From Gemmatimonadaceae bacterium (GTDB lineage Bacteria; Gemmatimonadota; Gemmatimonadetes; Gemmatimonadales; Gemmatimonadaceae), in assembly GCA_036509075.1 (NCBI GenBank), contig DATCGG010000530.1, positions 19,325 to 43,324 of the forward strand: a stretch of DNA of 24,000 nt. The letters are read 5' to 3'. Shown one piece after another: positions 55 to 23,032 of this stretch. Made by a program: the position numbers and the translations under genes. The notes beneath the pieces are model-generated. The model was not told the DNA's origin and made no database searches. It saw only the letters and a list, made by a program, of their open reading frames with translations. Position 1 is the stretch's first letter; the number at the start of each line of letters is the position of its first letter.

Positions 55-1211
55 GACTTCGCTCCCGCGGCCGACGCCGACGACGAGTCTACTGCTGGCA
101 CCGGTTTCACTACACGCCCCGGCGCGACCTTCTGGATGCCGTCGACGACGACTCGATCGCCAGCCGTTAGGCCCGACTCGATGATCCAGAGATTTCCACT
201 CCACTGCCCCGTGTTCACGTCGCGGGCAGTGACCGTATCTCCGACGCCGACCACATACACAAACTGGCGTCCAAGCCCCTGCTGCACGGCACGCTGCGGC
301 ACCGCAACCGCATTCGAGCGTTGGAACCCTTCCAGTCGCACACGCACGAACTGACCCGGCAGGAGGCGTCGATCGGCGTTCGTGAACTGCGCGCGAAACT
401 CCTGTGTTCCACTGGCCGAGTCGAGCGACGGAGCCATGAAGTTGATGCGACCGATGCGCGGGAGCTCCGAACCGTCCGGCAGCACGAGCCGGACTGCGGC
501 ACCGCTCGTGCCGCCTTCGCCGCTGCTCACACTCCTTGCCCCCGCCGCCAGCAGCGCGCGCGACTGCGGATCCTGCTGCCACGCGAGCAGCTGCTGCGAC
601 GACGGGTGAAAGGTGACGTACACGGGATTCAGCTCATCGATCGTCGTGAGCAGCTCGTTCGGACCCGTGACTCGCGCACCGAGCTCGAGACGTGAGCGAC
701 CTGCTTGTCCGGCGATCTCGGCGCGAATGACGGTGTCGTCGAGATCATGCTTCGCGGCATCCGCGGCCGCCTGCGCCGCCTCGACCTCCGATCGCGCGTT
801 GTCGACATCCTGCTGCGCGACGGCGCGGCGCGGGATGAGCGGCTCGAGCCGCGCGACGGTGCGCTTCGCATTCTCCAGCCGAGCGGCGGCACTGCGATAG
901 GCGGCTTCGTATCGCACGACGTCGAGGCGGTAGAGAACCTGGCCTTTCGCGACGAACGCCCCTTCAGTGAATGGGCGCTCGGTGATGATGCCTTCGACGC
1001 GCGACCGAACTTCGACGCGTCGGAACGGCGACACCTGGCCGACGAACTCGTACGCTTCGGGGATCGTCGCGGGCGCAACGGTCACGATGCCGACTTGCGC
1101 CGGCGGCGGAACGAACGCCTTCGCGGGAGCCTTCTCGCAGGCGGTCGTTGCCGTGAACAGCGTAATCAGCGCGAGCGCGAACGCGCTGCGGCGCGTGGGC
1201 GTGCTGGGCAT
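51..1211 (-). CDS. efflux transporter periplasmic adaptor (membrane fusion protein, AcrA/MexA-like), lipoprotein
   Basis: 386-aa ORF with a lipoprotein-type signal ending in Cys (LITLFTATTAC). It has an alpha-hairpin region (RYEAAYRSAAARLENAKR ... EVEAAQAAADAAKHDL) flanked by barrel-sandwich/beta-barrel segments typical of MFPs. GC3 is high. Confidence 0.85.
   Translation of the reverse strand: MPSTPTRRSAFALALITLFTATTACEKAPAKAFVPPPAQVGIVTVAPATIPEAYEFVGQVSPFRRVEVRSRVEGIITERPFTEGAFVAKGQVLYRLDVVRYEAAYRSAAARLENAKRTVARLEPLIPRRAVAQQDVDNARSEVEAAQAAADAAKHDLDDTVIRAEIAGQAGRSRLELGARVTGPNELLTTIDELNPVYVTFHPSSQQLLAWQQDPQSRALLAAGARSVSSGEGGTSGAAVRLVLPDGSELPRIGRINFMAPSLDSASGTQEFRAQFTNADRRLLPGQFVRVRLEGFQRSNAVAVPQRAVQQGLGRQFVYVVGVGDTVTARDVNTGQWSGNLWIIESGLTAGDRVVVDGIQKVAPGRVVKPVPAVDSSSASAAGAKS
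165..172 (+). repeat. dispersed 8-mer CGTTAGGC
   Basis: Exact match inside the adaptor CDS. The sense strand reads GGC CTA ACG (G-L-T). Confidence 0.9.
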
Positions 1212-1385
1212 GCAGTGGGAGGCCGATGAACGGCAAGGATGAGTCGATCGACTGCGGGTGTTCCGAAATGTGACCGGGCCGGCACGGTGGGAGGAAGATC
1301 CTTACCGTTGTTTAACACGTTGGCGCCCGGTCGGCTCGATGCCGGCGCCTCGTCACGACGACCCGGTTGTCCGACTATCGCACCG

Positions 1386-1393
1386 CGTTAGGC
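1386..1393 (+). repeat. dispersed 8-mer CGTTAGGC
   Basis: Exact match. Its TAA (sense GCC TAA CGC) is the pepT stop codon. Confidence 0.9.
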
Positions 1394-2680: not shown

Positions 2681-2700
2681 ACGGTTCAATTCTCCTTCGT

Positions 2701-3456: not shown

Positions 3457-3470
3457 GTGGTTCGCGGTTG

Positions 3471-3478
3471 GCCTAACG
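3471..3478 (-). repeat. dispersed 8-mer CGTTAGGC (GCCTAACG on + strand)
   Basis: Exact match. Its TAG (sense CGT TAG GC) is the hydrolase stop codon. Confidence 0.9.
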
Positions 3479-6088: not shown

Positions 6089-6095
6089 GTTAGGC
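6089..6095 (+). repeat. dispersed motif, 7-mer core GTTAGGC (5' flank T)
   Basis: Core match in the divergent intergenic region upstream of the ECF sigma gene. Confidence 0.8.
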
Positions 6096-6832: not shown

Positions 6833-7452
6833 ACGAAGAAGATCTGGTCAGGCTCTATCAACGAGGCGCCACACGTCGCGAGGCAACACGCGACGGCTGC
6901 GTGCCCCCGGAGGCGCTGCTCGATGTGGTAGAACGCCGAGGCCCCGAGGCGACGCGACTCCAGAGCGTCAATCACGCGATGGCCTGCGCCGATTGCCGCG
7001 AGGAGCTCGAGCTGCTGCGCGCCACACGCATCGTGCGCGATCGTGCGCGCCTGCCGCGCTTCGGATTCGCCCTCGCGGCATCTCTCGTCTTGGCGGCCGG
7101 CTTGGGGTTCTACGCCTTCGGTCGGCAGCGCGCACCAACCGGCTTGGGCGATGCCGGCGGCGTGACGCGCAGCGGGTCCGACGACGTCCAGCTCGTAACC
7201 ACCGGTGCGGTATCCACCCAGGCGCCGAACCTCGTCTGGCGATCCGCCACCGGCGCCGCGAGCTACGTCGTCGAGCTGCGCCGTGAGGATGGAACGCTGC
7301 TCGCCCGCGGCACGACGGCGGACACCGTGTTCGCGGTCCCGGACAGCGTGCGCGCGGGACCGGACTCGGACGCCTACTGGGCCGTGACCGCCCGGCTCTC
7401 CGATGGCACCTCACTCTCGTCGACCGCCCGGCGCATTCGCCTAACGCCATAG
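6829..7452 (+). CDS. anti-sigma factor, ZAS-type (C-x24-H-x3-C-x2-C), single-pass membrane protein
   Basis: The start overlaps the sigma gene stop (ATGA, 6829-6832). Cys24 (6898-6900) and H49-AMA-C53-AD-C56 (6973-6996) fit the zinc anti-sigma motif. One TM helix (FGFALAASLVLAAGLGFYAF) is followed by a ~100-aa extracytoplasmic domain. Confidence 0.7.
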   Translation: MNEEDLVRLYQRGATRREATRDGCVPPEALLDVVERRGPEATRLQSVNHAMACADCREELELLRATRIVRDRARLPRFGFALAASLVLAAGLGFYAFGRQRAPTGLGDAGGVTRSGSDDVQLVTTGAVSTQAPNLVWRSATGAASYVVELRREDGTLLARGTTADTVFAVPDSVRAGPDSDAYWAVTARLSDGTSLSSTARRIRLTP

Positions 7453-10319
7453 AGCAGGCCGCCTGCCACCGCCAGTCCGAGCACGATTGCGATCCATAGC
7501 CATCGGTTTGCTGGCGCGGTCAGCGGAACAGTGACGAGCGGATCACCCACGACGGCGAACGCTGCCCAAGTGGCTGGTGGGCTTCCGCGGCGGATCGCGG
7601 CGAGCTTCGCGGTGCGGGCTGCGTCGGCGACTGCCTGCCCGGCCGCAAGCGCGCGATAGAAATCATCGATGAACTGAACGGCATCGGTGTCGCGGATTCG
7701 CCATTGCGTCGCCAGCACCGAACGCGCGCCCGCCGCCAGCAGCGGCGCCGTGAGTCCCTGCACGCCTTCCCCGCGCACCGCGACGCCTCGGGCTGTGCGA
7801 CACGCGGACAGCACCACGAGTCCCGCGTCGAGCCGAAGCGCCGAGAGCTCTCCGGGGCCGACGAAGCCGTCGTCGCCCTCGCCGGCCGCGACCGCGAGAG
7901 CCGTACGTGCCACCGAACGCTCGTCCACCAGCGCATGCGTCGCGAGATGGACGATCGCGAACGAATCGAGTGTGGCGTGCTTGAGATAGCTCTCGCTCGC
8001 TCGCTCTCGCAGACGCAGCTCCGACTGGTGGCCGAACCGGGCCACGAGTTTGGCTTCATCAGCCGATGCGCGAAGCCGTGGGAGCCCTCCGTTCATCGAG
8101 AATGCGTCGCGATAGACGTCGGCGGCGGAGCCGCCGTTAGGCGCGATCTCGTTCGCGAACCGCGGATCGCCGAATGCGAGAATCCGCGGCGCGCCACGAT
8201 CTCGACGCGGGCGGCCGTGGAGGTCGGCCACGACCGCCGCGGAGGGCGCCAGGCTCAGCGCGAATCGATCGATCAGGTATCGACCGTCGCGAATCCGAAC
8301 CGCGTCGAATGGCAGGTGCTGAAGCGGGCCGTCGCCGATGATCACCAGCCGAGAAACATCCGCAGGCAGACTCTCGAGCGCAGAGCCGAACACGGCGTCG
8401 CCCAGCCGACGGGCGAGTGTGTCTGCGCGCGCCCCCGCCTCTATCATCGCAGAGAAGGCCTGGATGTCGGCGGCGATCGAATCAGCGGGCGGTCGGCTCA
8501 GCGCGGACGTGCCTTTCGACGAGAGCACGAACAGCGTGGTGGGCTCGCCTCGCAAGCCAGTAACGAACTCGAGCACGGCCGTACGTTGGTCCGGCACCGT
8601 GGGCACGACGAACCCGGTGACCCGCTCGCGCGTTAGGCCGTTGCCACTGCGGGCGAGATGGTCCAGCAGTTCGCGGGCTCGGCGTCGCTCCACCAGCGCC
8701 AACGCGCCGTCGACGCGGCCACCGGCGACGAGCCCCGCGATGATCGACGCGAAGCCCACCTCGGTCTCGTCGTAGCCTTTGTGCGCCTGGAACGCGAGCA
8801 CCCTGAGCTCGCGATCGTTGAGCGCCGCGCGCAGGGAATCCATCGCGTTCGTGGCGTCGATCAGCTCACGCTCGGCACGCGCCACGTCGCCCTGGGCAAC
8901 GTGGATCTGCGCGATGCGCGAGCGCGCCGCATACCGATCGAGGTCGGTTACGCCGCTGGTCGAGGCGAGCATGGCTCGAAAGCGACGCTCCGCCTCGACG
9001 AGATTGCCCTCGTGGAGTGCGACGACGCCGTACTCGTACTCGAGTTGCGGAACGTACGCCATCAACCCATGGGCCCGCGCCACCGTCTCGGCCTCGCCGA
9101 AATGCGTGCGTGCAGCCGTCCAGTCGCCACGGCTCATGGCGACGCGTGCCAGCCCGAATGAGGCGGAGTGCTGCTCCAGCGGTAGCTGAAGGCGCTGAGC
9201 CCGCGCGAGGTCGTCGCGATACGCCGCTTCGGCCGCATCGACCTGGCCCGCATCGAGCGCGATCGCGCCGTCGACGTAGCGCACGTAGGCCAGCCCCCAC
9301 CCATCGCCTTGCCGCAGCATCATCGTGCGCCCGCGCTCGAGCTCTCGGCGAGCCGACAGCATATCACCGAAGTGCCAGCTCACCACGGCGAGGCGCAGCC
9401 ACGCCCATGCCGCGATGAACTCGTTGCCCGACGCTCCGGCCTCGACGAGCACCGCCGAGAGATCGCGTCGGGCTGCATCGTGGTCGTAGAGATCGAGCTC
9501 CGCGGTGCCGCGCCACCACAGTGCGAGCGCGACACCCCGTCGATCGTGCACGCGCTGGGCGGCGGCGACGGCGGTGTCGAGCAACGCAGCAGATCGCGCA
9601 TGATCGCCAGCCCCCATGTAGAACGCGCCCAGCATCGCGAGGCAGAACGATTCACGTCGTAGGTCGCCGGCCTGACGCGCCAACGCGAGCCCGCGAAGCG
9701 CTTCCTGGCCCGCCTGCATGTTCCCTTGAAGGGCCAGCACGGCGGCTCTCGAACACCTCCCCTGCGCCACGAGAGCGGGGTCGCGCCGCGGCGCGAGCCC
9801 GAGCCCACTGTCGACGATCGGCAGCGCGACCGCCGCCGACTCGCGCCGAAGCCGGGAGATCGTGAGCCCGAACAGCGCCTGGGCCACGGCCACCGAGTCG
9901 TTGGCCGAGCGAGCTGCTTTGGCAGCCGTCACGAACCAGGCGGACGCGGAATCGAGCGGCGCATGATAGAGTCGAGATTCCGCGCGGCCTAACGCGGCCC
10001 AGGCAGCGTACGACGACCCGGGAGCCGTTGCGGCCGCGACCCTCGCGTACAGTCGATCGGCGCTGGCATCCTCGTACGTCAGTCGCGTGATCGTCGCAAC
10101 CCCGAGCAAGGCGCCGAGATCCGACGAATCACGAGCGAGCGACGCGCGCCATCGCGCGAGGGCCGGGCCCGCGCTGTCGACTTCGACGGCGTGCGTCGCC
10201 TGTCGAACGACGTCGGCGGGACGGTCGGTCGCGACCACAGCCTGCAGGACCAGGACAGCGGGAAGCGCGAGGTGCACGCCGCCGAACTCCGGCAAGGAGA
10301 GAGCACAGTCGGCCGGCAT
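7374..10319 (-). CDS. TPR-repeat / CHAT-domain (caspase-like) protein with C-terminal membrane anchor
   Basis: 981 aa. The N-terminal ~600 aa are TPR-like A/L/R-rich repeats. The C-terminal CHAT signature has a His (HLATHALVD; His codon 7935-7937) and a Cys (VVLSACRTARG; Cys codon 7800-7802). An N-terminal hydrophobic stretch (VHLALPAVLVLQAVVA) may be a signal peptide. A C-terminal TM helix (WLWIAIVLGLAVAGGLLYGV) is followed by a basic tail. Confidence 0.85.
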   Translation of the reverse strand: MPADCALSLPEFGGVHLALPAVLVLQAVVATDRPADVVRQATHAVEVDSAGPALARWRASLARDSSDLGALLGVATITRLTYEDASADRLYARVAAATAPGSSYAAWAALGRAESRLYHAPLDSASAWFVTAAKAARSANDSVAVAQALFGLTISRLRRESAAVALPIVDSGLGLAPRRDPALVAQGRCSRAAVLALQGNMQAGQEALRGLALARQAGDLRRESFCLAMLGAFYMGAGDHARSAALLDTAVAAAQRVHDRRGVALALWWRGTAELDLYDHDAARRDLSAVLVEAGASGNEFIAAWAWLRLAVVSWHFGDMLSARRELERGRTMMLRQGDGWGLAYVRYVDGAIALDAGQVDAAEAAYRDDLARAQRLQLPLEQHSASFGLARVAMSRGDWTAARTHFGEAETVARAHGLMAYVPQLEYEYGVVALHEGNLVEAERRFRAMLASTSGVTDLDRYAARSRIAQIHVAQGDVARAERELIDATNAMDSLRAALNDRELRVLAFQAHKGYDETEVGFASIIAGLVAGGRVDGALALVERRRARELLDHLARSGNGLTRERVTGFVVPTVPDQRTAVLEFVTGLRGEPTTLFVLSSKGTSALSRPPADSIAADIQAFSAMIEAGARADTLARRLGDAVFGSALESLPADVSRLVIIGDGPLQHLPFDAVRIRDGRYLIDRFALSLAPSAAVVADLHGRPRRDRGAPRILAFGDPRFANEIAPNGGSAADVYRDAFSMNGGLPRLRASADEAKLVARFGHQSELRLRERASESYLKHATLDSFAIVHLATHALVDERSVARTALAVAAGEGDDGFVGPGELSALRLDAGLVVLSACRTARGVAVRGEGVQGLTAPLLAAGARSVLATQWRIRDTDAVQFIDDFYRALAAGQAVADAARTAKLAAIRRGSPPATWAAFAVVGDPLVTVPLTAPANRWLWIAIVLGLAVAGGLLYGVRRMRRAVDESEVPSESRAVTAQ
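7439..7446 (-). repeat. dispersed 8-mer CGTTAGGC (GCCTAACG on + strand)
   Basis: Exact match inside the anti-sigma/CHAT overlap. It is in frame in both genes (R-L-T and G-V-R). Confidence 0.9.
8135..8142 (+). repeat. dispersed 8-mer CGTTAGGC
   Basis: Exact match in the CHAT CDS. The sense strand reads CCT AAC (P-N). Confidence 0.9.
8631..8638 (+). repeat. dispersed 8-mer CGTTAGGC
   Basis: Exact match in the CHAT CDS. The sense strand reads CTA ACG (L-T). Confidence 0.9.
9987..9994 (-). repeat. dispersed 8-mer CGTTAGGC (GCCTAACG on + strand)
   Basis: Exact match in the CHAT CDS. The sense strand reads TTA GGC (L-G, with the rare TTA codon). Confidence 0.9.
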
Positions 10320-10458: not shown

Positions 10459-11382
10459 ATGATGAGGGCCCCGCTCATGACCCGTTCGACACTCACTCGG
10501 TCGGTCGCGTGCGCCATCGCATGCGCCGGCCTGTCGATCTTTACCCGCGGCGCCGCCGCCCAGATCATGTCCGCACCCGCCACGCCTAACGCAACGTCCG
10601 GCACCGCGCTCACCGACTGGAACATCTCGTATCGCATGCTCGCCAACTGGCGTGTCGGCCAGACGATCGGCCGCCTCCAGATGATCGTGTCGAACACGGA
10701 CGCCGGCATGATCTTCCTCGCGCCCGGCATGTACGCGACGCCGCAGGACGCGATCGCCGACCTGAGCACGTTCTATCAGCAGATGCAGATGCAGGCGTAC
10801 CCCGTCGAGCAGCCGGCGATGGGAACGATTGCCGGATTGCGCTCGATCACCGCGATGTACGCGAGCGCCGATCTGATGGGACGCATGGTACAGGGCCGGT
10901 ACATTGCGCTCCTCACGGCGCACGGCACCGGTGTCAGCCTGCTCGCCATGACCACGCAGGACAAGATGGCCACGCTGCGCACGACCCTCGATCAGCTCGC
11001 GGCGAGCGTCAAGGCCGAGGCACCCTCCGTGAATCGTCAGGCGATGGCGGCACTCGCCGGCCAGTGGATCCTGTATGACGGCAAGGTCGACCCGGTGACG
11101 ACGAGCAGCGGCGGCGCCTCGCACAGCTACGAGGAGACCGTGGTGTTCGACGGACAGGGAAGCTACCGCTGGTCATCGGCTTCACAGGTGTCCGTGACGA
11201 CCCCCGGTATCTCGGCGGGCGCGGGTTCGGCGAACGGCTCCACGACCGACGGAGACCAGGGGTCGTACACGGTGATCGGTAATACGCTCGTGCTGAAAGG
11301 CACGAAGGGCCAGCTCGCAGTCGACTTCCAGCTTGGGAACGGCCAGCTCATCGCGGCCGGGAAGCGATACGTCCGCCAGTAA
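10459..11382 (+). CDS. secreted hypothetical protein
   Basis: 307 aa with signal peptide MMRAPLMTRSTLTRSVACAIACAGLSIFTRGAAAQ. GC3 is high. No family was recognised. Confidence 0.6.
   Translation: MMRAPLMTRSTLTRSVACAIACAGLSIFTRGAAAQIMSAPATPNATSGTALTDWNISYRMLANWRVGQTIGRLQMIVSNTDAGMIFLAPGMYATPQDAIADLSTFYQQMQMQAYPVEQPAMGTIAGLRSITAMYASADLMGRMVQGRYIALLTAHGTGVSLLAMTTQDKMATLRTTLDQLAASVKAEAPSVNRQAMAALAGQWILYDGKVDPVTTSSGGASHSYEETVVFDGQGSYRWSSASQVSVTTPGISAGAGSANGSTTDGDQGSYTVIGNTLVLKGTKGQLAVDFQLGNGQLIAAGKRYVRQ
10584..10591 (-). repeat. dispersed 8-mer CGTTAGGC (GCCTAACG on + strand)
   Basis: Exact match in the secreted hypothetical CDS. The sense strand reads CCT AAC (P-N). Confidence 0.9.
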
Positions 11383-11383: not shown

Positions 11384-11608
11384 GCCGCACCGGCGGCGGC
11401 CCTGGTGGCACTTGCGTTAGGCGACACGGCGGCAGCGCTCTCGGCGCTCGAGCGGTCGCAGCGAACGAGCGGTCGAGTGTGGTCCGAATATCTGGGGATC
11501 TTCGATCGCGCGTACGATCCGGTGCGCCGGAGTCCAAGGTTCATCGCACTCGTGCAGCAGGCGAACCTGGACATGGGGCGATTCGATCAGATGCGTCGCG
11601 GGCGCTAG
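11384..11608 (+). pseudogene. remnant of the 3' end of a TPR-repeat gene
   Basis: The translation ...LALGDTAAALSALERS...WSEYLGIFDRAYDPVRRSPRFIALVQQANL resembles the usual C-terminal module of TPR proteins (...Y...DP.LR.DPRF.AL...L). No matching upstream body exists. The only in-frame ATG (11333) lies inside the preceding gene. Confidence 0.4.
11415..11422 (+). repeat. dispersed 8-mer CGTTAGGC
   Basis: Exact match in the TPR remnant frame, reading TTA GGC (L-G). Confidence 0.9.
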
Positions 11609-13507: not shown

Positions 13508-13514
13508 GGTTAGG
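13508..13514 (+). repeat. dispersed motif, 7-mer core GTTAGGC (5' flank G)
   Basis: Core match abutting the proposed DUF418 start codon (sense GCCTAACC ATG). Confidence 0.8.
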
Positions 13515-13677
13515 CGGGCGAGGTGTGGAAGTCCATCCTGATCGCCCATCCCATTAGCAACCGCGACGCCGTCTTGCGCAGTGAGCACATCTCGCTGACC
13601 CGCATGCACTTGGCGCTGACGCTGAGCGCCGCGGGCGCAGGCGACGCGTAACGAGTCGATACGGCGCGGGCTCCGTT

Positions 13678-15399: not shown

Positions 15400-16735
15400 C
15401 GGAGCCGATATCGTGCCGGGCGAGAATGCGGTCGAGCCGAGGACGCGAGATGCCGAGGATTTGTGCCGCGCGTGCCTTGTGCCCGCGCGTAGCGGCGAGC
15501 ACCCGAAGCACATGTTCGCGCTCGACGTCGTCGAGCGTGCCGAGCTTCGCCGGCCCCTCCGGCGCCGCGCCACCGAGCACCAGGTGTTCGGCGCGGATGA
15601 CGTCGCCGCTCGCCACGACGACGGCGCGCGTTAGGCAGTTCTCCAGCTCGCGCACATTGCCCGGCCACGCGTGCCGCGCGAGCCCGGCGAGCGCGTCGGG
15701 CGCGAGCACCGGCTCGGGCCGTCCCACGGCTGCGGCGGCGCGGCGAACGAGCGTCGCCGCGAGTAACGGGAGGTCGCCCGCGCGCTCTCGGAGCGGCGGC
15801 ACGACGATCTCGACGACACGCAGCCGATAGTACAGGTCCGCGCGGAATTGCCCTGCCGCGACCATCGCCTCGAGGTCCCGGTGTGTCGCGGCGATCACCC
15901 GCGCCTCGGTGCGTTCGGGTCGGTCCGCGCCCACGGGGTAGAACTGCCGTTCCTGCAGCACGCGCAGGAGCTTCGTCTGAAAGTCGGCCGACGTGTCTCC
16001 GATCTCGTCGAGGAAGATCGCGCCACGTCCGGCGAGCGCGAACTTGCCACGGCGATCGCCCTGGGCGCCCGTGAAGGCGCCGCGGACATGGCCGAAGAGC
16101 TCACTCTCGAGCAGCGTCGCGGGCACGGCGGTGCAGTTGATCGGCACGAACGGCTCGACCGCCTCGCGCGAGTGGTCGTGGATGGCTTGCGCGATCAGCT
16201 CCTTGCCGGTACCGCTCTCGCCGCGAATGAGGACGTTCGCACGAGTCGCGGCCACCTGACCCACGAGCTTGTAGATCTCGATCATGCGCGGGTCGCGCCC
16301 CACGAGGTCCGCGAGCCGCTGTGGCGTTTCCTCCTCGTCGCGGCGACCGCGGGCAGCGCGCTGACGCGCCCGTCGATCGTCGATCACGCGTGCGACTCGC
16401 GTCCGCAGCTCGTGGAGATCGAGCGGCTTTACGAGGAAGTCGGTCGCGCCTTCCCGCATCGCCGCCACCACCGTCGGCATGTCGTCGAATGCGGTCATGA
16501 GCAGCACGGGAATGTCGGGAGCGCGTTCGCGGAGCAGCGCAAGCAACGCCAGCCCGTCCATCCCCGGCATGCGCACATCGGAGAGCACGACATCCGGTGC
16601 GCGCTCGGCGAGCAGGGCCACCGCGCGCGCGCCGTCGCCGGCCGAACGCACGTCATACCCCGCCTCGGCGAGCGCCTCGACGAGCGCTTCGCGCACGACC
16701 GTATCGTCGTCGACGACGAGCAGAGATCCGCTCAT
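15392..16735 (-). CDS. sigma-54-dependent response regulator (NtrC family bacterial enhancer-binding protein)
   Basis: REC domain (LLVVDDD ... LSDVRMPGMDG), AAA+ Walker A GESGTGKE, sigma-54 contact loop GAFTGA, ...NVRELEN..., and a C-terminal Fis-type HTH (GHKARAAQILGISRPRLDRIL). The start at ATG 16735 gives 447 aa. Confidence 0.9.
   Translation of the reverse strand: MSGSLLVVDDDTVVREALVEALAEAGYDVRSAGDGARAVALLAERAPDVVLSDVRMPGMDGLALLALLRERAPDIPVLLMTAFDDMPTVVAAMREGATDFLVKPLDLHELRTRVARVIDDRRARQRAARGRRDEEETPQRLADLVGRDPRMIEIYKLVGQVAATRANVLIRGESGTGKELIAQAIHDHSREAVEPFVPINCTAVPATLLESELFGHVRGAFTGAQGDRRGKFALAGRGAIFLDEIGDTSADFQTKLLRVLQERQFYPVGADRPERTEARVIAATHRDLEAMVAAGQFRADLYYRLRVVEIVVPPLRERAGDLPLLAATLVRRAAAAVGRPEPVLAPDALAGLARHAWPGNVRELENCLTRAVVVASGDVIRAEHLVLGGAAPEGPAKLGTLDDVEREHVLRVLAATRGHKARAAQILGISRPRLDRILARHDIGSDG
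15629..15636 (+). repeat. dispersed 8-mer CGTTAGGC
   Basis: Exact match in the activator CDS. The sense strand reads TGC CTA ACG (C-L-T). Confidence 0.9.
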
Positions 16736-16745
16736 CTGATCGGGA

Positions 16746-18629
16746 TCACGGTACGACCGCCCGCGCATGCGTCGAGTCCCAGCCGGCGAGCTCCCACAGC
16801 TCGTTGGCCGCGTGCCCTGCAGTGAAGTAGATGCGGCGCCCGTCGGGATGCACGGCGATCGGCGTGAAGTTGCCGGTCATTCCGAACCGCAGCGTGCGGG
16901 TCGCGCCGTCCGCGAGCGACACTCGGTCGACGCGCACCGAGGAGCGCCCCGGGGTGCCGAGCACCGCGTCGGCCTGGTTCGCCCGCACCACGTAGATGTA
17001 GCGTCCGTCGGCGGCCCAGTTGATCGTAAAGAGCTGGTCCGGCATACGCACGCGCAGTAGCTCGCGCACGGAGTTGCCCGCGAGGTCGCTCACGCGGAGT
17101 GCCGACCCCTGGCGGTCCTCCGTGGGCACCACCTGCGCGAGCAGCCGGCCATCTGGCGACATCTCGCCGCTAATGTCCTGGGGTCGCGCGTGCGGCCAGC
17201 TCGCAAGGACACGAGTGGCGCCAGTCGCCACGTCGGCTGCCACCGTCCGCACCGTGCTGTCGTCATCGTACCGGCGGTAGACGACTTCCTTACCGTTAGG
17301 CGTCCAGCCGAGGTTCCACGGCACGGTCCACAAATGAGCGGTCGTGTCGCCGGCGAACACCTGTCGGGCCTCACCCGTCGTGACGTCGACGACGAACACT
17401 CCCGCGCGGCGATTGGCGTCTTCGCCGCGCGTGAAAACGCGCGTGCCATCCGGCGACCAATGCTGCCGGCCGTAGATCCGTGACAGCGTCGTTCTTACCT
17501 TATGTGTCTCGCCGGTGAGGAGCGAGCGGAACGTGAGGGTCGGCTGGGCCCACTGGTCCTTGTCGCGATCGGGCACGTTGTGCACCAACCACTCCCCGTT
17601 CCGCGAGATGCCGAGCGCCGAGAGCGCGCGCGTGACATCGCGGTCGTCCATCCGTACCGGCTCACCGACGACCGCGCCCGTCGCGGTGTCGATCGTCGCC
17701 TGGTACAGATACCTGGCGCCGGTGCGCACCGTGTAGAGGAGACGCCCGTCGTTCGTCGCGCCGACGCCGGACACGTTCCATGTATCCGGCTTCAGGAGCC
17801 GCGCCTCACCGTCGGCGCGGCCATCGCGCACCGGTTGCAACCAGAAGCCCGGGGTGCCAGCGCGATCGCTGCTCAGAACAATGGCACGCCCGTCCGGCGC
17901 CCACCCGTTAGGCGTATCGTCGCTCGGCCACGTCACGAGGGGCCAGGTCCGCCCGGTCGCGATCTCGAGGATGCGCGCGTCGCGGGGTCCAACGCTCGGA
18001 TGCTCCGCGCTCCCGTTGTACGCGGCATAGCGACCGTCGGGCGAGAAGAGCACATCGCCCAACACCCACGTCACGTTCTTGAAGAGGAATCGGATGCCGC
18101 CGCCATCGAGGTCCAGCCAGCCGTAATCGAACCGCCCATTCGTTCGGTCGAGCTCCAGGATCACATGTCGGCCGTCCGGCGAGAAGCCGTTGACCTCCAT
18201 GTAGTAGTAGGCGGAGTCCTGGAACACGACGCGCGGATTGTGGCCGTCCGCGTCGACGACGCGGATCGAGTAGCGCTCGTCGTCGTCAGACCAGGAGAGC
18301 GCGATCCGGCGCCCGTCCGGCGACATCCTCGAGGTCTCGACGTACGCCTCCGACCCCCAACTGGCCTTGAGGCCGATTGGTCGAAGCGCGCCGGTCGCGA
18401 GGTCCCGCACGGCGAGATCCCCGGTGGACACGTCGATCGTGCTGAGGAATCGCCCGTCGGCGGTTGGGTAGCCGTAGTCGTTGAACTGCGCCTCGGAGAG
18501 AAGCCGACGCGCAACGACCCCGACTTGGCCGCGCAGCGCAGCCTTTTCAATGGCGGCGAGACGCTGGGGGTCGGGGCGAGTGCCGCACGCGGCGACGAGG
18601 GCGAGCGCTGAGAGGGCGAGGCGGCGCAT
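16746..18629 (-). CDS. TolB-like / PD40 beta-propeller repeat lipoprotein
   Basis: Repeated [FWM]SPDGR blades are present (MSPDGRRIAL, FSPDGRHVIL, FSPDGRYAAY, WAPDGRAIVL, WSPDGTRVF, MSPDGRLLA, HPDGRRIYF). From the ATG at 18629: MRRLALSALALVAAC lipoprotein signal. Only 10 bp separate its stop from the activator gene start. Confidence 0.8.
   Translation of the reverse strand: MRRLALSALALVAACGTRPDPQRLAAIEKAALRGQVGVVARRLLSEAQFNDYGYPTADGRFLSTIDVSTGDLAVRDLATGALRPIGLKASWGSEAYVETSRMSPDGRRIALSWSDDDERYSIRVVDADGHNPRVVFQDSAYYYMEVNGFSPDGRHVILELDRTNGRFDYGWLDLDGGGIRFLFKNVTWVLGDVLFSPDGRYAAYNGSAEHPSVGPRDARILEIATGRTWPLVTWPSDDTPNGWAPDGRAIVLSSDRAGTPGFWLQPVRDGRADGEARLLKPDTWNVSGVGATNDGRLLYTVRTGARYLYQATIDTATGAVVGEPVRMDDRDVTRALSALGISRNGEWLVHNVPDRDKDQWAQPTLTFRSLLTGETHKVRTTLSRIYGRQHWSPDGTRVFTRGEDANRRAGVFVVDVTTGEARQVFAGDTTAHLWTVPWNLGWTPNGKEVVYRRYDDDSTVRTVAADVATGATRVLASWPHARPQDISGEMSPDGRLLAQVVPTEDRQGSALRVSDLAGNSVRELLRVRMPDQLFTINWAADGRYIYVVRANQADAVLGTPGRSSVRVDRVSLADGATRTLRFGMTGNFTPIAVHPDGRRIYFTAGHAANELWELAGWDSTHARAVVP
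17294..17301 (+). repeat. dispersed 8-mer CGTTAGGC
   Basis: Exact match in the TolB-like CDS. The sense strand reads CCT AAC (P-N). Confidence 0.9.
17906..17913 (+). repeat. dispersed 8-mer CGTTAGGC
   Basis: Exact match in the TolB-like CDS. The sense strand reads CCT AAC (P-N). Confidence 0.9.
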
Positions 18630-19147: not shown

Positions 19148-19366
19148 CTAGCCCTCGGCCTTCATGGCCGACATCTGGGACACACCACCACGCGCCGAGC
19201 TCGATGTGATAGTTGCCCCGTCGGGCGTCGCGGTTTGGTCGATGGCGTGGCCGGCCACGGTAGTTAGGCACGCCACCGTGCACAGCAACGTGATTGCAGC
19301 GCACGGGCGCCTGCTGTGCCGCGTGGGCATATCTGTGCGCGACGAGCGCGATTGTATCGTTATCAT
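19148..19366 (-). CDS. candidate small exported peptide, 72 aa
   Basis: MITIQSRSSRTDMPTRHSRRPCAAITLLCTVACLTTVAGHAID... has a basic n-region and a hydrophobic core. GC3 by hand count is ~77 percent, higher than the overlapping frame. GAGGA lies 10 nt upstream. The stop is 5 nt before the next ATG. Confidence 0.4.
   Translation of the reverse strand: MITIQSRSSRTDMPTRHSRRPCAAITLLCTVACLTTVAGHAIDQTATPDGATITSSSARGGVSQMSAMKAEG
19263..19269 (+). repeat. dispersed motif, 7-mer core GTTAGGC (5' flank A)
   Basis: Core match inside the candidate 72-aa ORF (TGC CTA ACT, C-L-T). Confidence 0.8.
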
Positions 19367-19468: not shown

Positions 19469-19476
19469 CGTTAGGC
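19469..19476 (+). repeat. dispersed 8-mer CGTTAGGC
   Basis: Exact match in the intergenic region between the small exported protein genes. Confidence 0.9.
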
Positions 19477-20069: not shown

Positions 20070-20082
20070 ACAGGCGGAAATA

Positions 20083-20090
20083 GCCTAACG
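20083..20090 (-). repeat. dispersed 8-mer CGTTAGGC (GCCTAACG on + strand)
   Basis: Exact match in the intergenic region between UAS array B and promoter B. Confidence 0.9.
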
Positions 20091-20145
20091 CACGACGTTG
20101 CATGCGCTTGCGCGCGGAGCCGTCGCGCGGCGCTCACACGACACC

Positions 20146-20183
20146 GTAATGGCGCGTTACGAACTGCGTCACGAGGCGTTACG
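20146..20183 (-). promoter_or_regulatory. candidate enhancer (UAS) array B
   Basis: The + strand reads GTAATG-gcg-CGTTACGA-N13-GCGTTACG, the same architecture and spacing as array A. It lies 77 bp upstream of promoter B. Confidence 0.5.
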
Positions 20184-20208
20184 GGCAGGTAGTGACGAAC
20201 GAGGTCAG

Positions 20209-20216
20209 CGTTAGGC
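20209..20216 (+). repeat. dispersed 8-mer CGTTAGGC
   Basis: Exact match in the intergenic region, 32 bp beyond the distal CGTTAC unit of array B. Confidence 0.9.
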
Positions 20217-20959: not shown

Positions 20960-20967
20960 GCCTAACG
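20960..20967 (-). repeat. dispersed 8-mer CGTTAGGC (GCCTAACG on + strand)
   Basis: Exact match in the intergenic region, 9 nt after the lipoprotein stop. Confidence 0.9.
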
Positions 20968-21005: not shown

Positions 21006-21386
21006 CTATGTGGCCGGAGCCGAGGCCGCAGCCGCGTTGCTCAGCACGACCGCCAGGACGGCATCGTGCTCGGCCGGCGGACTGAACTCCGCCCACTCAA
21101 AGTCCTCTTCCACCACGGCAGTATGGCCCGGCGGCATGTAGACTATGTCGCCGGCGCTCACCACCTCCTCGCGGTCGGCATACGTTATCCGCATTCGTCC
21201 CCGTATGACGTAGCCCCAATGGGGGCACGGGCATCGGTCGTTAGGCAACCCCTTGAAGAGCGGGCCCAGGTCCGCGCCGGCGGGCAGCGAGACGATCCCC
21301 GCGCGCAAGCCGCCCCAATCCGCGCCGCGCACCGCGGCTGGGTCAGCGCCAAACAGGACCGGGAGTTCGTCACGTGATGCGTGCAT
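21006..21386 (-). CDS. cupin domain protein
   Basis: 126 aa. The core CPHWGYVIRGRMRITYADREEVVSAGDIVYMPPGH matches the two-motif cupin beta-barrel pattern. Confidence 0.75.
   Translation of the reverse strand: MHASRDELPVLFGADPAAVRGADWGGLRAGIVSLPAGADLGPLFKGLPNDRCPCPHWGYVIRGRMRITYADREEVVSAGDIVYMPPGHTAVVEEDFEWAEFSPPAEHDAVLAVVLSNAAAASAPAT
21239..21246 (+). repeat. dispersed 8-mer CGTTAGGC
   Basis: Exact match in the cupin CDS. The sense strand reads CCT AAC (P-N). Confidence 0.9.
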
Positions 21387-21456: not shown

Positions 21457-22863
21457 TCATGGCGGCGTCACAGGCGTGGCCGGGGGTACGTTGGCGTTGA
21501 GGCGAAAGAGATTCGTTGGGTCATACTTCGTTTTGAGCGCCACCAGGCGGTCGTAGCGAGCGCCAAACGCCGCCCGGACCTCCTCGCCGTCGGCATCCGC
21601 CCCGACGGCGTTGGAGTACACACCGGTCGAGAACGGACGCCAGGACGCCCACACGGAGCGGGACCACGCCACCTGCGCCGCGTCCTCCGCTGGGTCATCC
21701 CAGCAGGAGAGCACGAGTGCGTCCCACCGGGCCTCTCGGTGCGCGAACGCCGTCGTGGCGGGCGGCACGCGTGTCGCCGCGTTCCCGAGCTGCTGGAAGA
21801 GGAAGAAGGTCAGGGGTGACGGGACCGCCGCGAACTGCTCGACGACACGCGAGGCCAGCCCGTCTGGGATCTCGCGCATCATGGCGGATTTCCAGTAATA
21901 GCGGCGTCCGCGCGGAAAAGCGCCATCGAGGGCGGTCTGGAACTGGGCGTAGGGTACGGGACCGATCTGGTCGAGGACCGGCGGGCCGAACGCCTTCAGT
22001 GGGCGCAGCGCACGTTCCCCGTCGTCCAAGCTCCCGCAGTGGCACGCGGCGACGGCGACAACCTTTGCCCCGTCGGGCGTCGTGAGGAACGCGCAGGCGG
22101 TGTTCACCTCGTCAGGCGCCGCGGCGACGAAGTCGCGGTAGAATTGGATCACCTCCGGCGCGCGCTCTAGCGGGTGCGCGACCATGCCAGCGACGACCAT
22201 CGGGCCGACGGGGTGCAGTCGGAACTCGAAGGCGGTGACCACGCCGAAGTTGCCGCCGCCGCCTCGGATCCCCCAAAACAAGTCGGCGTTCTCTGTCGGG
22301 CTGGCCGTAAGGAGGCGCCCGTCGGCCGTGACTACGTCGGCGGCGAGGAGGTTGTCGCACGTTAGGCCGTACCGGCCGGCGAGCCACCCGAGCCCGCCAC
22401 CGAGCGTCAGTCCGGCGACCCCGGTGTCCGAGACGCTTCCCCCAGTGGTGGCCAAGCCGTGGGCCTGCGCGGCCGCGTCGAGCGCGGCCCAGCGAACGCC
22501 CGGCTCCACGCGGGCCGTGCGCCCGGTGGCGTCGACGGCGATGCCTTGCATCGGGGACAGGTCGATCATGAGACCGCCGTCGCAGACCGCCGTGCCGGCC
22601 GCGTGGTGATCGCCGCCGCGCACGGCCACGAGCAACCGGTGCGTTCGCGCGAAATCCACGGCTCGGCGCACGTCGGCCGCGTTGACGCACCGGGCGATGA
22701 GGCCAGGCCTGCGGTCGATCATGCCGTTCCAGACGCGGCGAGCGTCGTCGTAGCCGGGCGCGCCGGGCGATAGCAGTCCGCCTCCAAGGGCCGCGCCGAA
22801 GTCGCGGACGGTCTCCCAGCCGATCTGACTCGCGACGTCGTTCACGAGGTAGGTATCCGACAT
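21457..22863 (-). CDS. FAD-binding oxidoreductase (FAD-linked oxidase with C-terminal BBE-like domain)
   Basis: PCMH-type FAD domain (VAVRGGDHHAAG, GVAGLTLGGGLGWLAGRYGLTCDNLLAADVV, LFWGIRGGGGNFGVVT) and a BBE-like end (YDRLVALKTKYDPTNLFRLN). The ATG at 22863 has GAGGAA 8 nt upstream and gives 468 aa. Confidence 0.85.
   Translation of the reverse strand: MSDTYLVNDVASQIGWETVRDFGAALGGGLLSPGAPGYDDARRVWNGMIDRRPGLIARCVNAADVRRAVDFARTHRLLVAVRGGDHHAAGTAVCDGGLMIDLSPMQGIAVDATGRTARVEPGVRWAALDAAAQAHGLATTGGSVSDTGVAGLTLGGGLGWLAGRYGLTCDNLLAADVVTADGRLLTASPTENADLFWGIRGGGGNFGVVTAFEFRLHPVGPMVVAGMVAHPLERAPEVIQFYRDFVAAAPDEVNTACAFLTTPDGAKVVAVAACHCGSLDDGERALRPLKAFGPPVLDQIGPVPYAQFQTALDGAFPRGRRYYWKSAMMREIPDGLASRVVEQFAAVPSPLTFFLFQQLGNAATRVPPATTAFAHREARWDALVLSCWDDPAEDAAQVAWSRSVWASWRPFSTGVYSNAVGADADGEEVRAAFGARYDRLVALKTKYDPTNLFRLNANVPPATPVTPP
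22360..22367 (+). repeat. dispersed 8-mer CGTTAGGC
   Basis: Exact match in the FAD oxidase CDS. The sense strand reads GGC CTA ACG, encoding the conserved G-L-T of the YGLT.DNL motif with the rare CTA codon. Confidence 0.9.
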
Positions 22864-23024
22864 GGCGGCATTCCTCGCTGAAGTTGGGTGCGCGATGGAG
22901 CTGAACATACAGCCGCCGCGATGCGCCTGTCGAGGCGTGGCCGTTAGAGCACACACCGGATCGGCCCTACCCGTATCCGCACCGCCGGGCACGCTCTGGA
23001 ATCACCCGAAACCGTTCGGAAGAG

Positions 23025-23032
23025 CGTTAGGC
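23025..23032 (+). repeat. dispersed 8-mer CGTTAGGC
   Basis: Exact match in the intergenic region between the FAD oxidase start and the TPR gene stop. Confidence 0.9.

What the first reader, a model, noticed from the sequence alone, without database searches (positions are those of the whole stretch)
165..23032. Highly over-represented non-palindromic 8-mer CGTTAGGC/GCCTAACG, about one copy per kb, across unrelated genes and spacers
Counts (manual scan of both strands): the exact 8-mer occurs 20 times, 14 as CGTTAGGC and 6 as GCCTAACG on the + strand. The 7-mer core GTTAGGC/GCCTAAC occurs 24 times; coordinates are in the feature list.

Expectation: under an independent-base estimate assuming roughly two-thirds G+C (not computed exactly), one specific 8-mer with three A/T positions should appear about once on both strands in 24 kb. 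By my count about 17 of ~25 TTAG tetramers and 7 of ~10 CTAA tetramers on the + strand lie inside this word.

Context: the 3 nt on either side show no conservation, so this is a bare word and not part of a REP/MITE-like element. Spacing is aperiodic.

Coding behaviour: copies sit in the efflux adaptor, CHAT, kinase, activator, TolB-like, cupin and FAD oxidase genes and in 7 intergenic sites. In coding regions the word is read as Leu-Thr (CTA ACG), Pro-Asn (CCT AAC) or Leu-Gly (TTA GGC). CTA and TTA are codons this GC3-rich sequence otherwise avoids. In the FAD oxidase a conserved G-L-T is spelled with CTA just to make the word. Each orientation contains a stop triplet in one frame, yet no copy truncates a gene. 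That argues for selection on the DNA or RNA word under protein constraint.

Orientation: the bias is 17:7 (+ vs -), or about 14:5 relative to the sense strand (mRNA mostly reads GCCUAAC).

Interpretation: the density and distribution recall DNA uptake sequences (Neisseria DUS, Pasteurellaceae USS) or cyanobacterial HIP1. The orientation bias recalls Chi/KOPS-type polar motifs. I do not recognise this word as any described motif.
Basis: partly seen in the sequence, partly recalled or inferred. Interest (0 to 1): 0.85.

Follow-up and report, generated by a model that had tools for sequence, protein, structure and literature searches.

The report
Hyper-abundant 8-mer word in Gemmatimonadaceae genomes
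A bare 8-letter DNA word, CGTTAGGC, is written about once per kilobase, even into conserved genes through rare codons, in some soil Gemmatimonadaceae including the cultured Gemmatirosa kalamazoonensis; it resembles the DNA-uptake words of Neisseria and Haemophilus, matches the integron core site, and its function is unknown.

Summary
CGTTAGGC/GCCTAACG occurs 20 times in the window (14+/6-), against about 0.4-0.6 expected under dinucleotide-preserving or protein- and codon-preserving shuffles.

The window comes from a soil Gemmatimonadaceae MAG. The same bare word is hyper-abundant (0.3-1.5 per kb) in related MAGs, in isolate T265 and in cultured Gemmatirosa kalamazoonensis. Its megaplasmid 1 carries 778 copies against 39 expected. 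The word is absent from Gemmatimonas and about 30 other loci.

Copies are created by synonymous rare codons. On the plasmid, 79% of all TTA codons lie in the word, and the word supplies 44% of TAA stops. Positions turn over quickly between species. Close neighbours are under-represented. Orientation shows no Chi- or KOPS-type skew, and the window's sense-strand bias is local. The published SMRT methylome does not list the word.

New points: the 7-mer core is the canonical integron core site (GTTRRRY). Plasmid 1 carries an integron (IntI plus about 49 attC sites) whose attC ends are this word. A phage contig also carries the word.

Best reading (about 0.35): a protein-recognised double-stranded DNA signal amplified by an uptake/recombination drive, as for DUS/USS. 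Rivals are a Chi-like or self tag, an IntI-related site, and a nucleoid-protein site. No paper in the searched library contains the word.

The parts
165..172 (+). CGTTAGGC copy inside the HlyD-family adaptor gene (51-1211, -). The sense strand reads GC CTA ACG (G-L-T).
1386..1393 (+). Copy that supplies the TAA stop codon of the M20 peptidase gene (GCC TAA CG on the - strand). Conserved in L002.
3471..3478 (-). Copy that supplies the TAG stop codon of the alpha/beta-hydrolase gene (CGT TAG GC). Conserved in L001 and L002. The synteny break with the GNAT gene starts here.
6089..6095 (+). 7-mer-only copy (TGTTAGGC), intergenic between the aminotransferase and ECF sigma genes.
7439..7446 (-). Copy in the overlap between the 3' end of the CHAT gene and ORF 6901-7452.
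8135..8142 (+). Copy in the CHAT-domain gene. The sense strand reads G CCT AAC G (P-N).
8631..8638 (+). Copy in the CHAT-domain gene. The sense strand reads GC CTA ACG (L-T).
9987..9994 (-). Copy in the CHAT-domain gene. The sense strand reads xCG TTA GGC (L-G).
10584..10591 (-). Copy in ORF 10459-11382 (+, no Pfam hit). The sense strand reads G CCT AAC G.
11415..11422 (+). Intergenic copy.
13509..13515 (+). 7-mer-only copy (GGTTAGGC) in the DUF418 gene.
14002..14008 (-). 7-mer-only copy (TGTTAGGC on the - strand) in the histidine-kinase gene.
14503..14510 (+). Copy in the histidine-kinase gene (GC CTA ACG, L-T).
15629..15636 (+). Copy in the sigma-54 activator gene (GC CTA ACG, L-T).
17294..17301 (+). 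Copy in the PD40/TolB-like gene (G CCT AAC G, P-N).
17906..17913 (+). Copy in the PD40/TolB-like gene (G CCT AAC G, P-N).
19263..19269 (+). 7-mer-only copy (AGTTAGGC) in a region of weak, unannotatable ORFs.
19469..19476 (+). Copy in a region of weak ORFs (called intergenic).
20083..20216 (+). Inverted pair GCCTAACG...CGTTAGGC spanning 134 nt. The termini pair as a 10-bp stem. The left copy supplies a TAA for ORF 19465-20088. Size and ends fit an attC site, but internal similarity to the Gemmatirosa attC sites is poor.
20960..20967 (-). Intergenic copy between ORF 20469-20951 and the cupin gene.
21239..21246 (+). Copy in the cupin gene (21006-21386, -). The sense strand reads G CCT AAC G.
22360..22367 (+). 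Copy in the FAD/BBE oxidase gene (GC CTA ACG, G-L-T).
23025..23032 (+). Intergenic copy between the oxidase and TPR genes.

Best explanation
CGTTAGGC (core GTTAGGC; first base C>>T>A>G; 9th base a purine) is a lineage-specific signature word. It is read as double-stranded DNA by some sequence-specific protein in a subset of Gemmatimonadaceae. That subset includes Gemmatirosa kalamazoonensis, isolate T265 and relatives, and the soil MAG lineage of this window.

The word is held at about 0.3-1 copy per kb on chromosome, megaplasmids and at least one phage. The force acts on word density per kilobase, not on individual positions, RNA or protein.

The most likely mechanism is the one known for DUS/USS. 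Conspecific DNA fragments carrying the word would be taken up or recombined preferentially. Any mutation towards the word would then be transmitted more often (a molecular drive), until every protein-compatible context is partly saturated.

Shown:
- Extreme enrichment.
- Action at the DNA level.
- Near orientation-neutrality.
- Deficit of close neighbours.
- Rapid gain and loss of positions.
- Restriction to certain lineages.

Inferred: a reader protein, biased uptake or recombination, and natural competence in these bacteria.
For: Enrichment:
- Window: 20 observed against 0.4-0.6 expected.
- G. kalamazoonensis megaplasmid 1: 778 against 39 expected under order-3 Markov, z=117, the top 8-mer.
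- Plasmid genes: 542 against about 20 after synonymous shuffling.

DNA-level force under protein constraint:
- In the invariant DDPLGVR motif, Leu is CTC/CTG/CTT in 14 orthologues and TTA only in L044, where it makes the word.
- A CGG to AGG change makes a site in L001.
- 309 of 391 TTA codons on the plasmid lie in the word.
- 32% of NCG-Leu-GGC contexts and 61% of G-Pro-Asn-G contexts carry the word.

Orientation:
- All four open frames, both stop frames and intergenic DNA are used.
- Sense:antisense is 37:32 in the window's clade.
- Strand counts in chromosomal loci are balanced.

Spacing: neighbours 130-300 nt apart number 35 against 83 expected, and the CV is 0.81. This fits a benefit per fragment that saturates.

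Turnover: only 1 of 8 sites is shared between Gemmatirosa species in orthologous genes. Density is kept while positions are not.

Lineage restriction: the word is present in the window, L001, L002, L005, L023, L044, L047, L188, L207, L288, L289 and L397. It is absent from L003, L004, L006-L022, L046, L290, L291, L396 and others.

Tandem arrays: intergenic arrays share the 8-mer but have periods of 7, 11, 14 and 17 nt; arrays of period 12 and 18 include in-frame coding repeats. This points to the word itself as the recognised unit.
Against: - Natural competence is not documented for Gemmatimonadota, and I could not examine competence genes in these genomes.
- Inverted-pair terminators, typical of Neisseria DUS, are rare. 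Only 2 close hairpin pairs occur among 778 copies.
- A true phage contig (terminase, DNA polymerase) carries 9 copies in 16.8 kb, while 79 related phages have none above chance. An uptake drive does not obviously act on phage DNA. A cis-acting benefit in this host explains it more simply.
- The megaplasmid shows a weak replicon-scale polarity of about 57-58%.
- Relatives that lack the word show no alternative 'dialect' word.
- The identity of the core with the integron core site is not predicted by this model.
Confidence: 0.35

Rival explanations
1. The word is a cis-acting protective or recombination signal. It could be a Chi-like site for a RecBCD/AddAB-type helicase-nuclease, or a 'self' tag that spares DNA from a host nuclease or defence system. 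Selection would then keep it dense on any DNA that must survive in this host.
For: - It is a non-palindromic 8-mer with a soft first position, like Chi variants.
- It is present at host-like density on both megaplasmids.
- It is present on a genuine phage contig but not on 79 related phages.
- CGTTAGGC is weakly enriched on the putative leading strand of plasmid 1, about 57-58%. The cumulative curve turns at about 250 kb and about 800-900 kb, in step with the sign of the GC/AT skew.
- The deficit of close neighbours fits a saturating function.
Against: - No Chi-type skew. The log-likelihood ratio is -7.95 for 75% and -3.96 for 70% over 11 chromosomal loci, and the KBS708 chromosome locus is 8:8.
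- The observed/expected ratio of 20-50 and the 30-60% saturation of permissive contexts, at the cost of the rarest codons, exceed what I recall for known Chi sites (own knowledge).
- Tandem arrays are not a Chi feature.
Confidence: 0.2
2. The word is an integron-integrase (IntI) site. The dispersed copies would be attI/attG-like core sites bound by, or recombined by, the lineage's IntI. Alternatively the word spread from, or is co-opted by, the integron system.
For: - GTTAGGC/GCCTAAC fits GTTRRRY/RYYYAAC (PMC3053210).
- G. kalamazoonensis plasmid 1 carries an integron integrase at 856,827-857,786 (TIGR02249, 423 bits against a cut-off of 265).
- Next to it lie about 49 same-orientation attC sites, 92-128 nt long, between 810.3 and 856.2 kb. 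Their ends are GCCTAACG...CGTTAG(G/R)C.
- The cassettes encode GNAT, NYN and Cass2 proteins.
- Of the 16 GTTRRRY heptamers, only GTTAGGC is enriched: 892 against 26.
- The window holds one attC-sized inverted pair.
Against: - More than 90% of copies are solitary, have no hairpin partner, and lie inside conserved genes where they arose by synonymous substitution. Cassette insertion at those sites would destroy the gene.
- A bare core site is a poor IntI substrate (own knowledge).
- No tyrosine recombinase is found among the window's ORFs.
- The match may simply be the host-wide pressure converting attC R boxes to the one compatible variant.
Confidence: 0.12
3. The word is a binding site for an abundant nucleoid-associated or chromosome-organising protein. 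Selection would act on regular site density.
For: - The word is orientation-neutral, occurs on all replicons, and is more evenly spaced than random.
- Clustered arrays with variable period could act as high-affinity loading sites.
Against: - I know of no nucleoid protein that imposes a strict 8-bp word at 20-50-fold enrichment against codon bias (own knowledge).
- The fast positional turnover and the patchy presence among close relatives are unusual for a core chromosome-architecture system.
Confidence: 0.12
4. The word is a by-product of a sequence-specific mutation or repair bias, such as very-short-patch-type repair linked to an m5C methyltransferase. It would have no function of its own.
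For: - The most enriched one-off variants are C-to-T changes at the terminal Cs. TGTTAGGC is 28-fold and CGTTAGGT 2.6-13-fold enriched.
- A phage replicating in the host also carries the word.
- m5C is not excluded by SMRT data.
Against: - Creating the word needs several steps towards A/T in a 67-73% GC genome, for example CTC to TTA.
- A mutational process does not predict the deficit of close neighbours.
- The G-to-A mirror variants are not enriched.
- The three detected methylation motifs do not match.
Confidence: 0.05

Closest known systems
Neisseriaceae DUS (GCCGTCTGAA family) and Pasteurellaceae USS (AAGTGCGGT core)
   Same: - A short non-palindromic word at about 1 per kb on both strands.
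- It lies in coding and non-coding DNA and is restricted to certain lineages.
- Copies are squeezed into genes in tolerated frames.
- Spacing is more even than random.
- Singly mismatched relatives are present.
   Different: - It occurs in a different phylum with no documented competence.
- It is only 8 bp, with no flanking AT tracts.
- Hairpin pairs are rare.
- It supplies many stop codons.
- It forms tandem arrays.
- It is found on a phage contig.
- Its core equals the integron core site.
- Biased uptake has not been tested.
Cyanobacterial HIP1 (GCGATCGC)
   Same: - A bare 8-mer at about 1 per kb, written into genes against codon preference.
- Its function is unresolved.
- It is restricted to certain lineages.
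   Different: - HIP1 is a palindrome and overlaps methyltransferase targets.
- This word is non-palindromic and is not among the m6A motifs of the KBS708 methylome (PMC3974934).
Chi (e.g. E. coli GCTGGTGG) and KOPS/AIMS polar octamers
   Same: - An over-represented non-palindromic octamer.
- A weak leading-strand preference on the megaplasmid.
   Different: - No strong replication polarity. A skew of 70% or more is rejected in chromosomal loci.
- Enrichment is far higher and carries a codon cost.
Integron core site GTTRRRY / inverse core RYYYAAC of attC and attI
   Same: - The 7-mer core fits the consensus exactly.
- In G. kalamazoonensis, the about 49 attC sites next to an IntI gene end in this very 8-mer.
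   Different: - Over 90% of copies are solitary words inside ordinary genes, not paired hairpin sites at cassette boundaries.
- No IntI gene lies in the window.

Membership tests
DNA uptake sequence (DUS/USS) | Short word hyper-abundant (about 1 per kb) across whole replicons on both strands | tested here: met
   Window: 20 in 24 kb. Megaplasmid 1: 778 in 1.106 Mb against 39 expected. Chromosome locus: 16 in 22.5 kb.
DNA uptake sequence (DUS/USS) | Restricted to one lineage and absent from relatives | tested here: met
   Present in 12 or more Gemmatirosa-like or related loci. Absent from Gemmatimonas UBA7669, L396 and about 30 other loci.
DNA uptake sequence (DUS/USS) | Competent cells preferentially take up DNA carrying the word | not testable with these tools
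   This needs uptake-competition assays, for example in strain KBS708.
DNA uptake sequence (DUS/USS) | Competence machinery (ComEC, DprA, type IV pilus/PilQ, a DNA receptor) is encoded | not tested
   Only about 20-kb chromosome samples were accessible. Literature searches gave nothing specific.
DNA uptake sequence (DUS/USS) | Frequent inverted pairs acting as terminators (a Neisseria trait) | tested here: not met
   Only 2 close hairpin pairs (19 and 22 nt) among 778 copies. The other -/+ pairs at about 89 nt are attC sites.
Chi | Marked co-orientation with replication (about 70-80% on the leading strand) | tested here: not met
   Log-likelihood ratio -7.95 (75%) and -3.96 (70%) over 11 loci. 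Plasmid 1 shows about 57-58%.
Chi | Modulates a RecBCD/AddAB-type enzyme | not testable with these tools
   A biochemical or genetic assay is required.
KOPS/AIMS | Very strong skew that switches at dif | tested here: not met
   Strand counts within loci are near balanced.
HIP1-type palindrome | Palindromic word overlapping a methyltransferase target | tested here: not met
   The word is non-palindromic. The KBS708 methylome motifs are RGATCY, ATGCAC and CCAGN7TCA.
Integron attC / core site | Sequence fits GTTRRRY (core) and RYYYAAC (inverse core) | tested here: met
   GTTAGGC / GCCTAAC; consensus taken from PMC3053210.
Integron attC / core site | Copies occur as inverted pairs 57-141 nt apart, forming an imperfect hairpin downstream of a cassette ORF | tested here: not met
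   In the window, 18 of 20 copies are solitary. The single pair 20083-20216 (134 nt) folds weakly (z=-1.6) and aligns poorly to the Gemmatirosa attC sites. On plasmid 1, only about 9% of copies lie in attC sites.
Integron attC / core site | Integron integrase gene nearby | tested here: not met
   No tyrosine recombinase among the window ORFs. The feature is met only on G. kalamazoonensis plasmid 1 (TIGR02249, 423 bits).
REP/MITE-type repeat | The word is embedded in a longer conserved element | tested here: not met
   No flank conservation in the window, in the pooled clade or across 778 plasmid copies.

The most novel reading that the evidence does not exclude
The hyper-abundant word and the integron core site are the same signal for a reason. 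In these Gemmatimonadaceae, one recognition system would read G|TTAGGC. That system could be an uptake receptor tuned to attC ends, or IntI or a domesticated relative of it.

Under this reading, the host genome has been saturated with integron core sites. New attC sites and cassettes would be built from the host's own word, which already terminates about 9% of genes. That would link DNA-uptake specificity, cassette genesis and genome-wide word drive in a cultured organism.
Probability: 0.1. Interest if true: 0.95.

Novelty: new member of a known kind. Interest (0 to 1): 0.8.

Why it matters
As far as I know, sequence-specific uptake words have been established in only two bacterial families. 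The origin and function of other hyper-abundant words such as HIP1 remain open.

Here a comparably extreme word appears in an abundant but poorly studied soil phylum. It is also present in Gemmatirosa kalamazoonensis KBS708, which has a finished genome and a culture-collection strain. Uptake, binding, nuclease-protection and integrase assays are therefore feasible.

The word gives a simple marker for binning or host-assigning contigs, plasmids and phages of this lineage.

Its identity with the integron core site, in a genome that carries a roughly 49-cassette integron using that word, offers a concrete handle on a long-standing question: where attC sites and new gene cassettes come from.

Tried and rejected
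- Exact look-up of the longest CHAT ORF found nothing, probably because of a wrong start. Two JGI contigs had no retrievable DNA.
- The maximal-order Markov expectation is uninformative because the sub-words are enriched too. I used lower-order and codon-preserving nulls instead.
- Candidate 'dialect' words in other Gemmatimonadales (ACGTTCGA, GACGTTG, CCCCTAC, CCACTAG, ACAGGGAA) turned out to be tandem arrays or REP-like elements, not dispersed words. A second search found no alternative hyper-abundant word in relatives that lack the motif.
It mostly returned tandem repeats, many from unrelated AT-rich contigs. It still yielded the Gemmatirosa lead (L188) and the variable-period arrays.
- The viral double-word scan was mostly chance hits.
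- I rejected a general sense-strand (RNA-level) bias, because its sign flips between loci.
- Orientation runs on the plasmid (z=-3.6) were computed with both copies of the 53-kb tandem duplication included and were not recomputed without it. A weak replicon-scale polarity is also present.
- The GNAT gene next to the copy at 3471 is not an integron cassette. No attC follows it.
- The pair 20960/21239 is not an attC. It spans the cupin gene.
- Rfam found nothing for the attC-like array.
- Literature searches for the word itself, and for Gemmatimonad* together with 'uptake sequence', gave no hits.
- The accessions I tried for the 21-kb KBS708 element (NZ_CP007127, NZ_CP007131) were not in the plasmid collection.

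Full report
**Observation.** CGTTAGGC/GCCTAACG occurs 20 times in the 24-kb window (14 on +, 6 on -). Dinucleotide-preserving shuffles expect 0.41. The 7-mer GTTAGGC occurs 24 times, expected 0.89. An order-2 Markov model expects 0.53, and the word is by far the most deviant 8-mer. Shuffles that keep every protein sequence and the codon usage of my gene calls give a mean of 0.60, max 4. Flanks carry no conserved sequence. The refutation criterion 'O/E near 1 once codon and dinucleotide bias are modelled' is not met.

**Where the window comes from, and how far the word extends.** The class-V aminotransferase of the window is 100% identical to a protein of a 'Gemmatimonadaceae bacterium' MAG.

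A scan of one genome per species with an alignment of its orthologues returned 43 loci.
- The word is the top 8-mer in L001, L002, L023 and L005 (orthologue identity 93, 92, 86 and 79%; 0.5-0.85 per kb).
- It is absent from the other Gemmatimonadales, Acidobacteria and Alphaproteobacteria loci, including orthologues at 74-80% identity.

Metagenome contigs L044/L045 (90%) and L047 (80%) carry it at 0.7-1.0 per kb. L046 (80%) does not.

A metagenome contig rich in the word (L188) proved to be Gemmatirosa. Its RNR is 99% identical to a Gemmatirosa MAG and 89% to G. kalamazoonensis.
- The cultured type strain KBS708 has 16 copies in a 22.5-kb chromosome sample, 0.17 expected.
- I fetched its megaplasmid 1 whole. 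It has 778 copies in 1,106,233 bp (0.70 per kb) against 39 expected under order-3 Markov, the top 8-mer at z=117.
- The first 50 kb of plasmid 2 holds 20 copies.
- Isolate T265 and a syntenic MAG have 7 copies per 22.6 kb.
- Gemmatimonas sp. UBA7669 has none, L396 has none, and L398 has two (not significant).

The word is therefore genome-wide and restricted to certain lineages. Its distribution within Gemmatimonadaceae is patchy. Relatives without the word show no substitute word.

**Anatomy.** Pooled sites (n=59; n=778) show no flanking conservation. The exceptions are a purine at position 9 (80%) and codon-phase periodicity. Position 1 is soft (C 778, T 77, A 21, G 16), while the inner GTTAGG is strict.

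On the plasmid, by my crude codon-likelihood gene calls, the 778 copies fall as follows:

| Context | Copies |
|---|---|
| xCG TTA GGC | 309 |
| G CCT AAC G | 186 |
| Intergenic (19% of copies; 12.6% of the DNA is non-coding) | 148 |
| GCC TAA stop codon | 46 |
| CGT TAG stop codon | 42 |
| C GTT AGG C | 24 |
| GC CTA ACG | 23 |

So 44% of all TAA stops and 21% of all TAG stops lie in the word, and 9% of genes end in it. In the window, copies 1386 and 3471 are such stop codons, and both are conserved in L001/L002.

**The force acts on DNA under protein constraint.**
- In the invariant peptide DDPLGVR, Leu is CTC/CTG/CTT in 14 orthologues and TTA only in L044, where it creates the word.
- L001 gained a site by a synonymous CGG to AGG change.
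- On the plasmid, 309 of the 391 TTA codons lie in the word.
- 32% of NCG-Leu-GGC contexts use TTA, against 1.2% overall.
- 61% of G-Pro-Asn-G contexts are CCT-AAC, although CCT is only 2.4% of Pro codons.
- Synonymous shuffling of plasmid genes leaves about 20 copies against 542 observed.
- The enriched one-off variant CGTTGGGC (151 against 49) is the synonymous TTG stepping stone.

**Dynamics.** In orthologous RNR and PD40 genes of G. kalamazoonensis, a Gemmatirosa MAG and T265, only 1 of 8 sites is shared. Density is maintained while positions are not. After collapsing clusters, neighbours 130-300 nt apart number 35 against 83 expected, and the spacing CV is 0.81. Extra copies close to an existing one are disfavoured or add nothing. 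That argues against a purely mutational origin.

**Orientation.** The window's 14:6 strand bias and 13:2 sense bias are not general.
- Pooled sense:antisense is 37:32 in the window's clade, and the sign flips between loci.
- Over 11 chromosomal loci, the log-likelihood ratio against no skew is -7.95 for a 75% skew, -3.96 for 70% and -0.37 for 60%.
- The KBS708 chromosome sample is 8:8.
- On plasmid 1 the cumulative orientation curve rises from about 800-900 kb through 250 kb and falls in between. This roughly follows the sign of the GC/AT skew. About 57-58% of copies have CGTTAGGC on the putative leading strand, also after correcting for gene strand.

That polarity is weak. KOPS-type polarity is excluded and Chi-type polarity is disfavoured.

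**Methylation.** The published SMRT methylome of KBS708 reports only RGATCY, ATGCAC and CCAGN7TCA (PMC3974934). The word is therefore not a detected m6A target. m5C remains untested.

**Mobile DNA.** A viral-contig scan found several 64-69% GC contigs with dispersed copies. One is a genuine phage region with a terminase and a DNA polymerase. It has 9 copies in 16.8 kb, whereas 79 related phages (0.91 Mb) hold 13 copies in total. The host of this phage is not known. A Gemmatimonadaceae host is inferred only from the word and the G+C content.

**Arrays and the integron link.** The metagenome scan returned tandem arrays that share the 8-mer. Intergenic arrays have periods of 7, 11, 14 and 17 nt; arrays of period 12 and 18 include in-frame coding repeats. 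Several sit on Gemmatirosa-like contigs that also carry dispersed copies.

On plasmid 1, the region 810.3-856.2 kb holds about 49 same-orientation copies of a 92-128-nt hairpin element. Its sequence is GCCTAACGAATCGTTGCAGCTGAC...CAGCTGAACTCCAGCGTTAG(G/R)C. Between the elements lie small ORFs encoding GNAT, NYN and Cass2 proteins. Beside the array is a 319-aa protein that scores 423 bits on the integron-integrase model TIGR02249, cut-off 265. This is an integron.

GCCTAAC and GTTAGGC fit the inverse-core and core consensus RYYYAAC/GTTRRRY (PMC3053210). Of the 16 GTTRRRY heptamers, only GTTAGGC is enriched, 892 against 26. About 9% of plasmid-1 copies belong to attC sites. The rest are solitary.

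In the window, only the pair 20083-20216 (134 nt) has attC-like ends and size. It folds weakly and aligns poorly to the Gemmatirosa attC sites. No recombinase gene is present.

**Interpretation.** The data require a pressure with these properties:
- it acts on double-stranded sequence;
- it is nearly orientation-free;
- it acts per kilobase rather than per position;
- it is strong enough to override codon bias;
- it can be gained and lost among close relatives.

The only well-understood process with these properties is the uptake/recombination drive of DUS/USS. I take that as the best explanation (0.35). Competence and biased uptake are inferred, not shown.

Several findings keep rivals alive: the phage copy, the plasmid polarity, the scarcity of hairpin pairs and the integron coincidence.

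| Rival | Confidence |
|---|---|
| Chi-like or self-tag signal | 0.2 |
| IntI-related site | 0.12 |
| Nucleoid-protein site | 0.12 |
| Repair or mutation bias | 0.05 |

Chance, codon bias and assembly artefact are excluded.

**Novelty.** Full-text searches found no paper containing either form of the word, and none linking Gemmatimonad* with uptake sequences. The KBS708 genome paper does not mention it. I file this as a new member of the class of hyper-abundant genomic words. The link to the integron core site is unexplained and potentially important.

**Caveats.**
- Gene calls are from my own simple caller.
- Plasmid 1 contains a 53-kb tandem duplication that counts some sites twice.
- Only 22.5 kb of the KBS708 chromosome was accessible.
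- The breakpoints of the plasmid skew were chosen after seeing the data.

Noticed in passing
NZ_CP007129.1 (G. kalamazoonensis plasmid 1) 810,280-857,786 = L308:10280 to L309:7786: A complete integron. The integrase lies at 856,827-857,786 (- strand; TIGR02249, 423 bits). About 49 attC sites (92-128 nt) lie on the same strand as the integrase. Cassettes include GNAT, NYN and Cass2 genes. A further solitary attC lies at 881,735-881,829. The PLSDB record has no annotation.
   Followed up: partly
L014:11227-11330 and 20346-20440; L011:20481-20640; L039:2716-2790; L008:3363-3410: Gemmatimonadales that lack the word carry short tandem arrays with other units: heptamers GACGTTG, ACGTTCG and ACAGGGA, and the octamer CCCACTAG. 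In L014 and L011 the arrays come in inverted pairs flanking a 'GAGACAAACCTCG'-like spacer. Word-bearing contigs have (GCGTTAG)n arrays instead (L263:175-590, L204:3-80, L209:17-73, the last downstream of era).
   Followed up: no
NZ_CP007129.1, many sites (e.g. the first rows listed): A second repeated element on plasmid 1. It consists of 'CTCCACGTACG...' followed by three 11-nt units (GGACTGAAGNA), then GGACCAAC and a small hairpin. GGACTGAA occurs 120 times against 6.5 expected.
   Followed up: no
L014:3773, 5495, 15943-16271; L034:4504, 5528, 5625, 13378, 13466, 16089: A REP-like element 'CGACGCAATGCGTCGCCCCTACCGGTCCAAGGCC'. It is shared by two Gemmatimonadales MAGs and is partly in tandem with a period of about 109 bp.
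   Followed up: no
window 2701-3478 versus L001 and L002: The GNAT acetyltransferase gene of the window is absent from L001. In L002 a different 313-aa gene takes its place. The synteny break begins exactly at the word that forms the hydrolase stop codon (3471-3478). No attC follows the GNAT gene.
   Followed up: partly
L288:9507-9558 and L188:3645-3707: A cluster of 3-4 copies sits in the same intergenic spot, between the hexapeptide-transferase gene and the B12-dependent RNR gene, in two Gemmatirosa species. In L288 it includes a perfect 8-bp-stem hairpin, GCCTAACG-GTCAG-CGTTAGGC, that overlaps the stop codon. The long RNR leader behind it was not examined for a cobalamin riboswitch.
   Followed up: no
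L315 (IMGVR_UViG_3300020577_002214, 1-16837); also L077, L083, L148, L152: Viral contigs of 64-69% GC carry dispersed copies at about 0.3-1.3 per kb (L152 lowest, 4 in 13.7 kb). L315 encodes a terminase and a DNA polymerase, and its 79 terminase relatives lack the word. The word might therefore serve as a host-assignment marker.
   Followed up: partly
NZ_CP007129.1 positions about 1,000, 54,060 and 1,102,698: The 53-kb tandem duplication described in the genome paper is visible as repeated sequence. It duplicates the orientation pattern of the word in the first 106 kb.
   Followed up: partly
L207:839-918; L242:1112-1180; NZ_CP007129.1:1,005,342-1,005,437: In-frame tandem repeats (periods 18 and 12 nt) inside protein-coding genes. 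Their repeat unit contains the word, so the encoded proteins carry short peptide repeats dictated by it.
   Followed up: no
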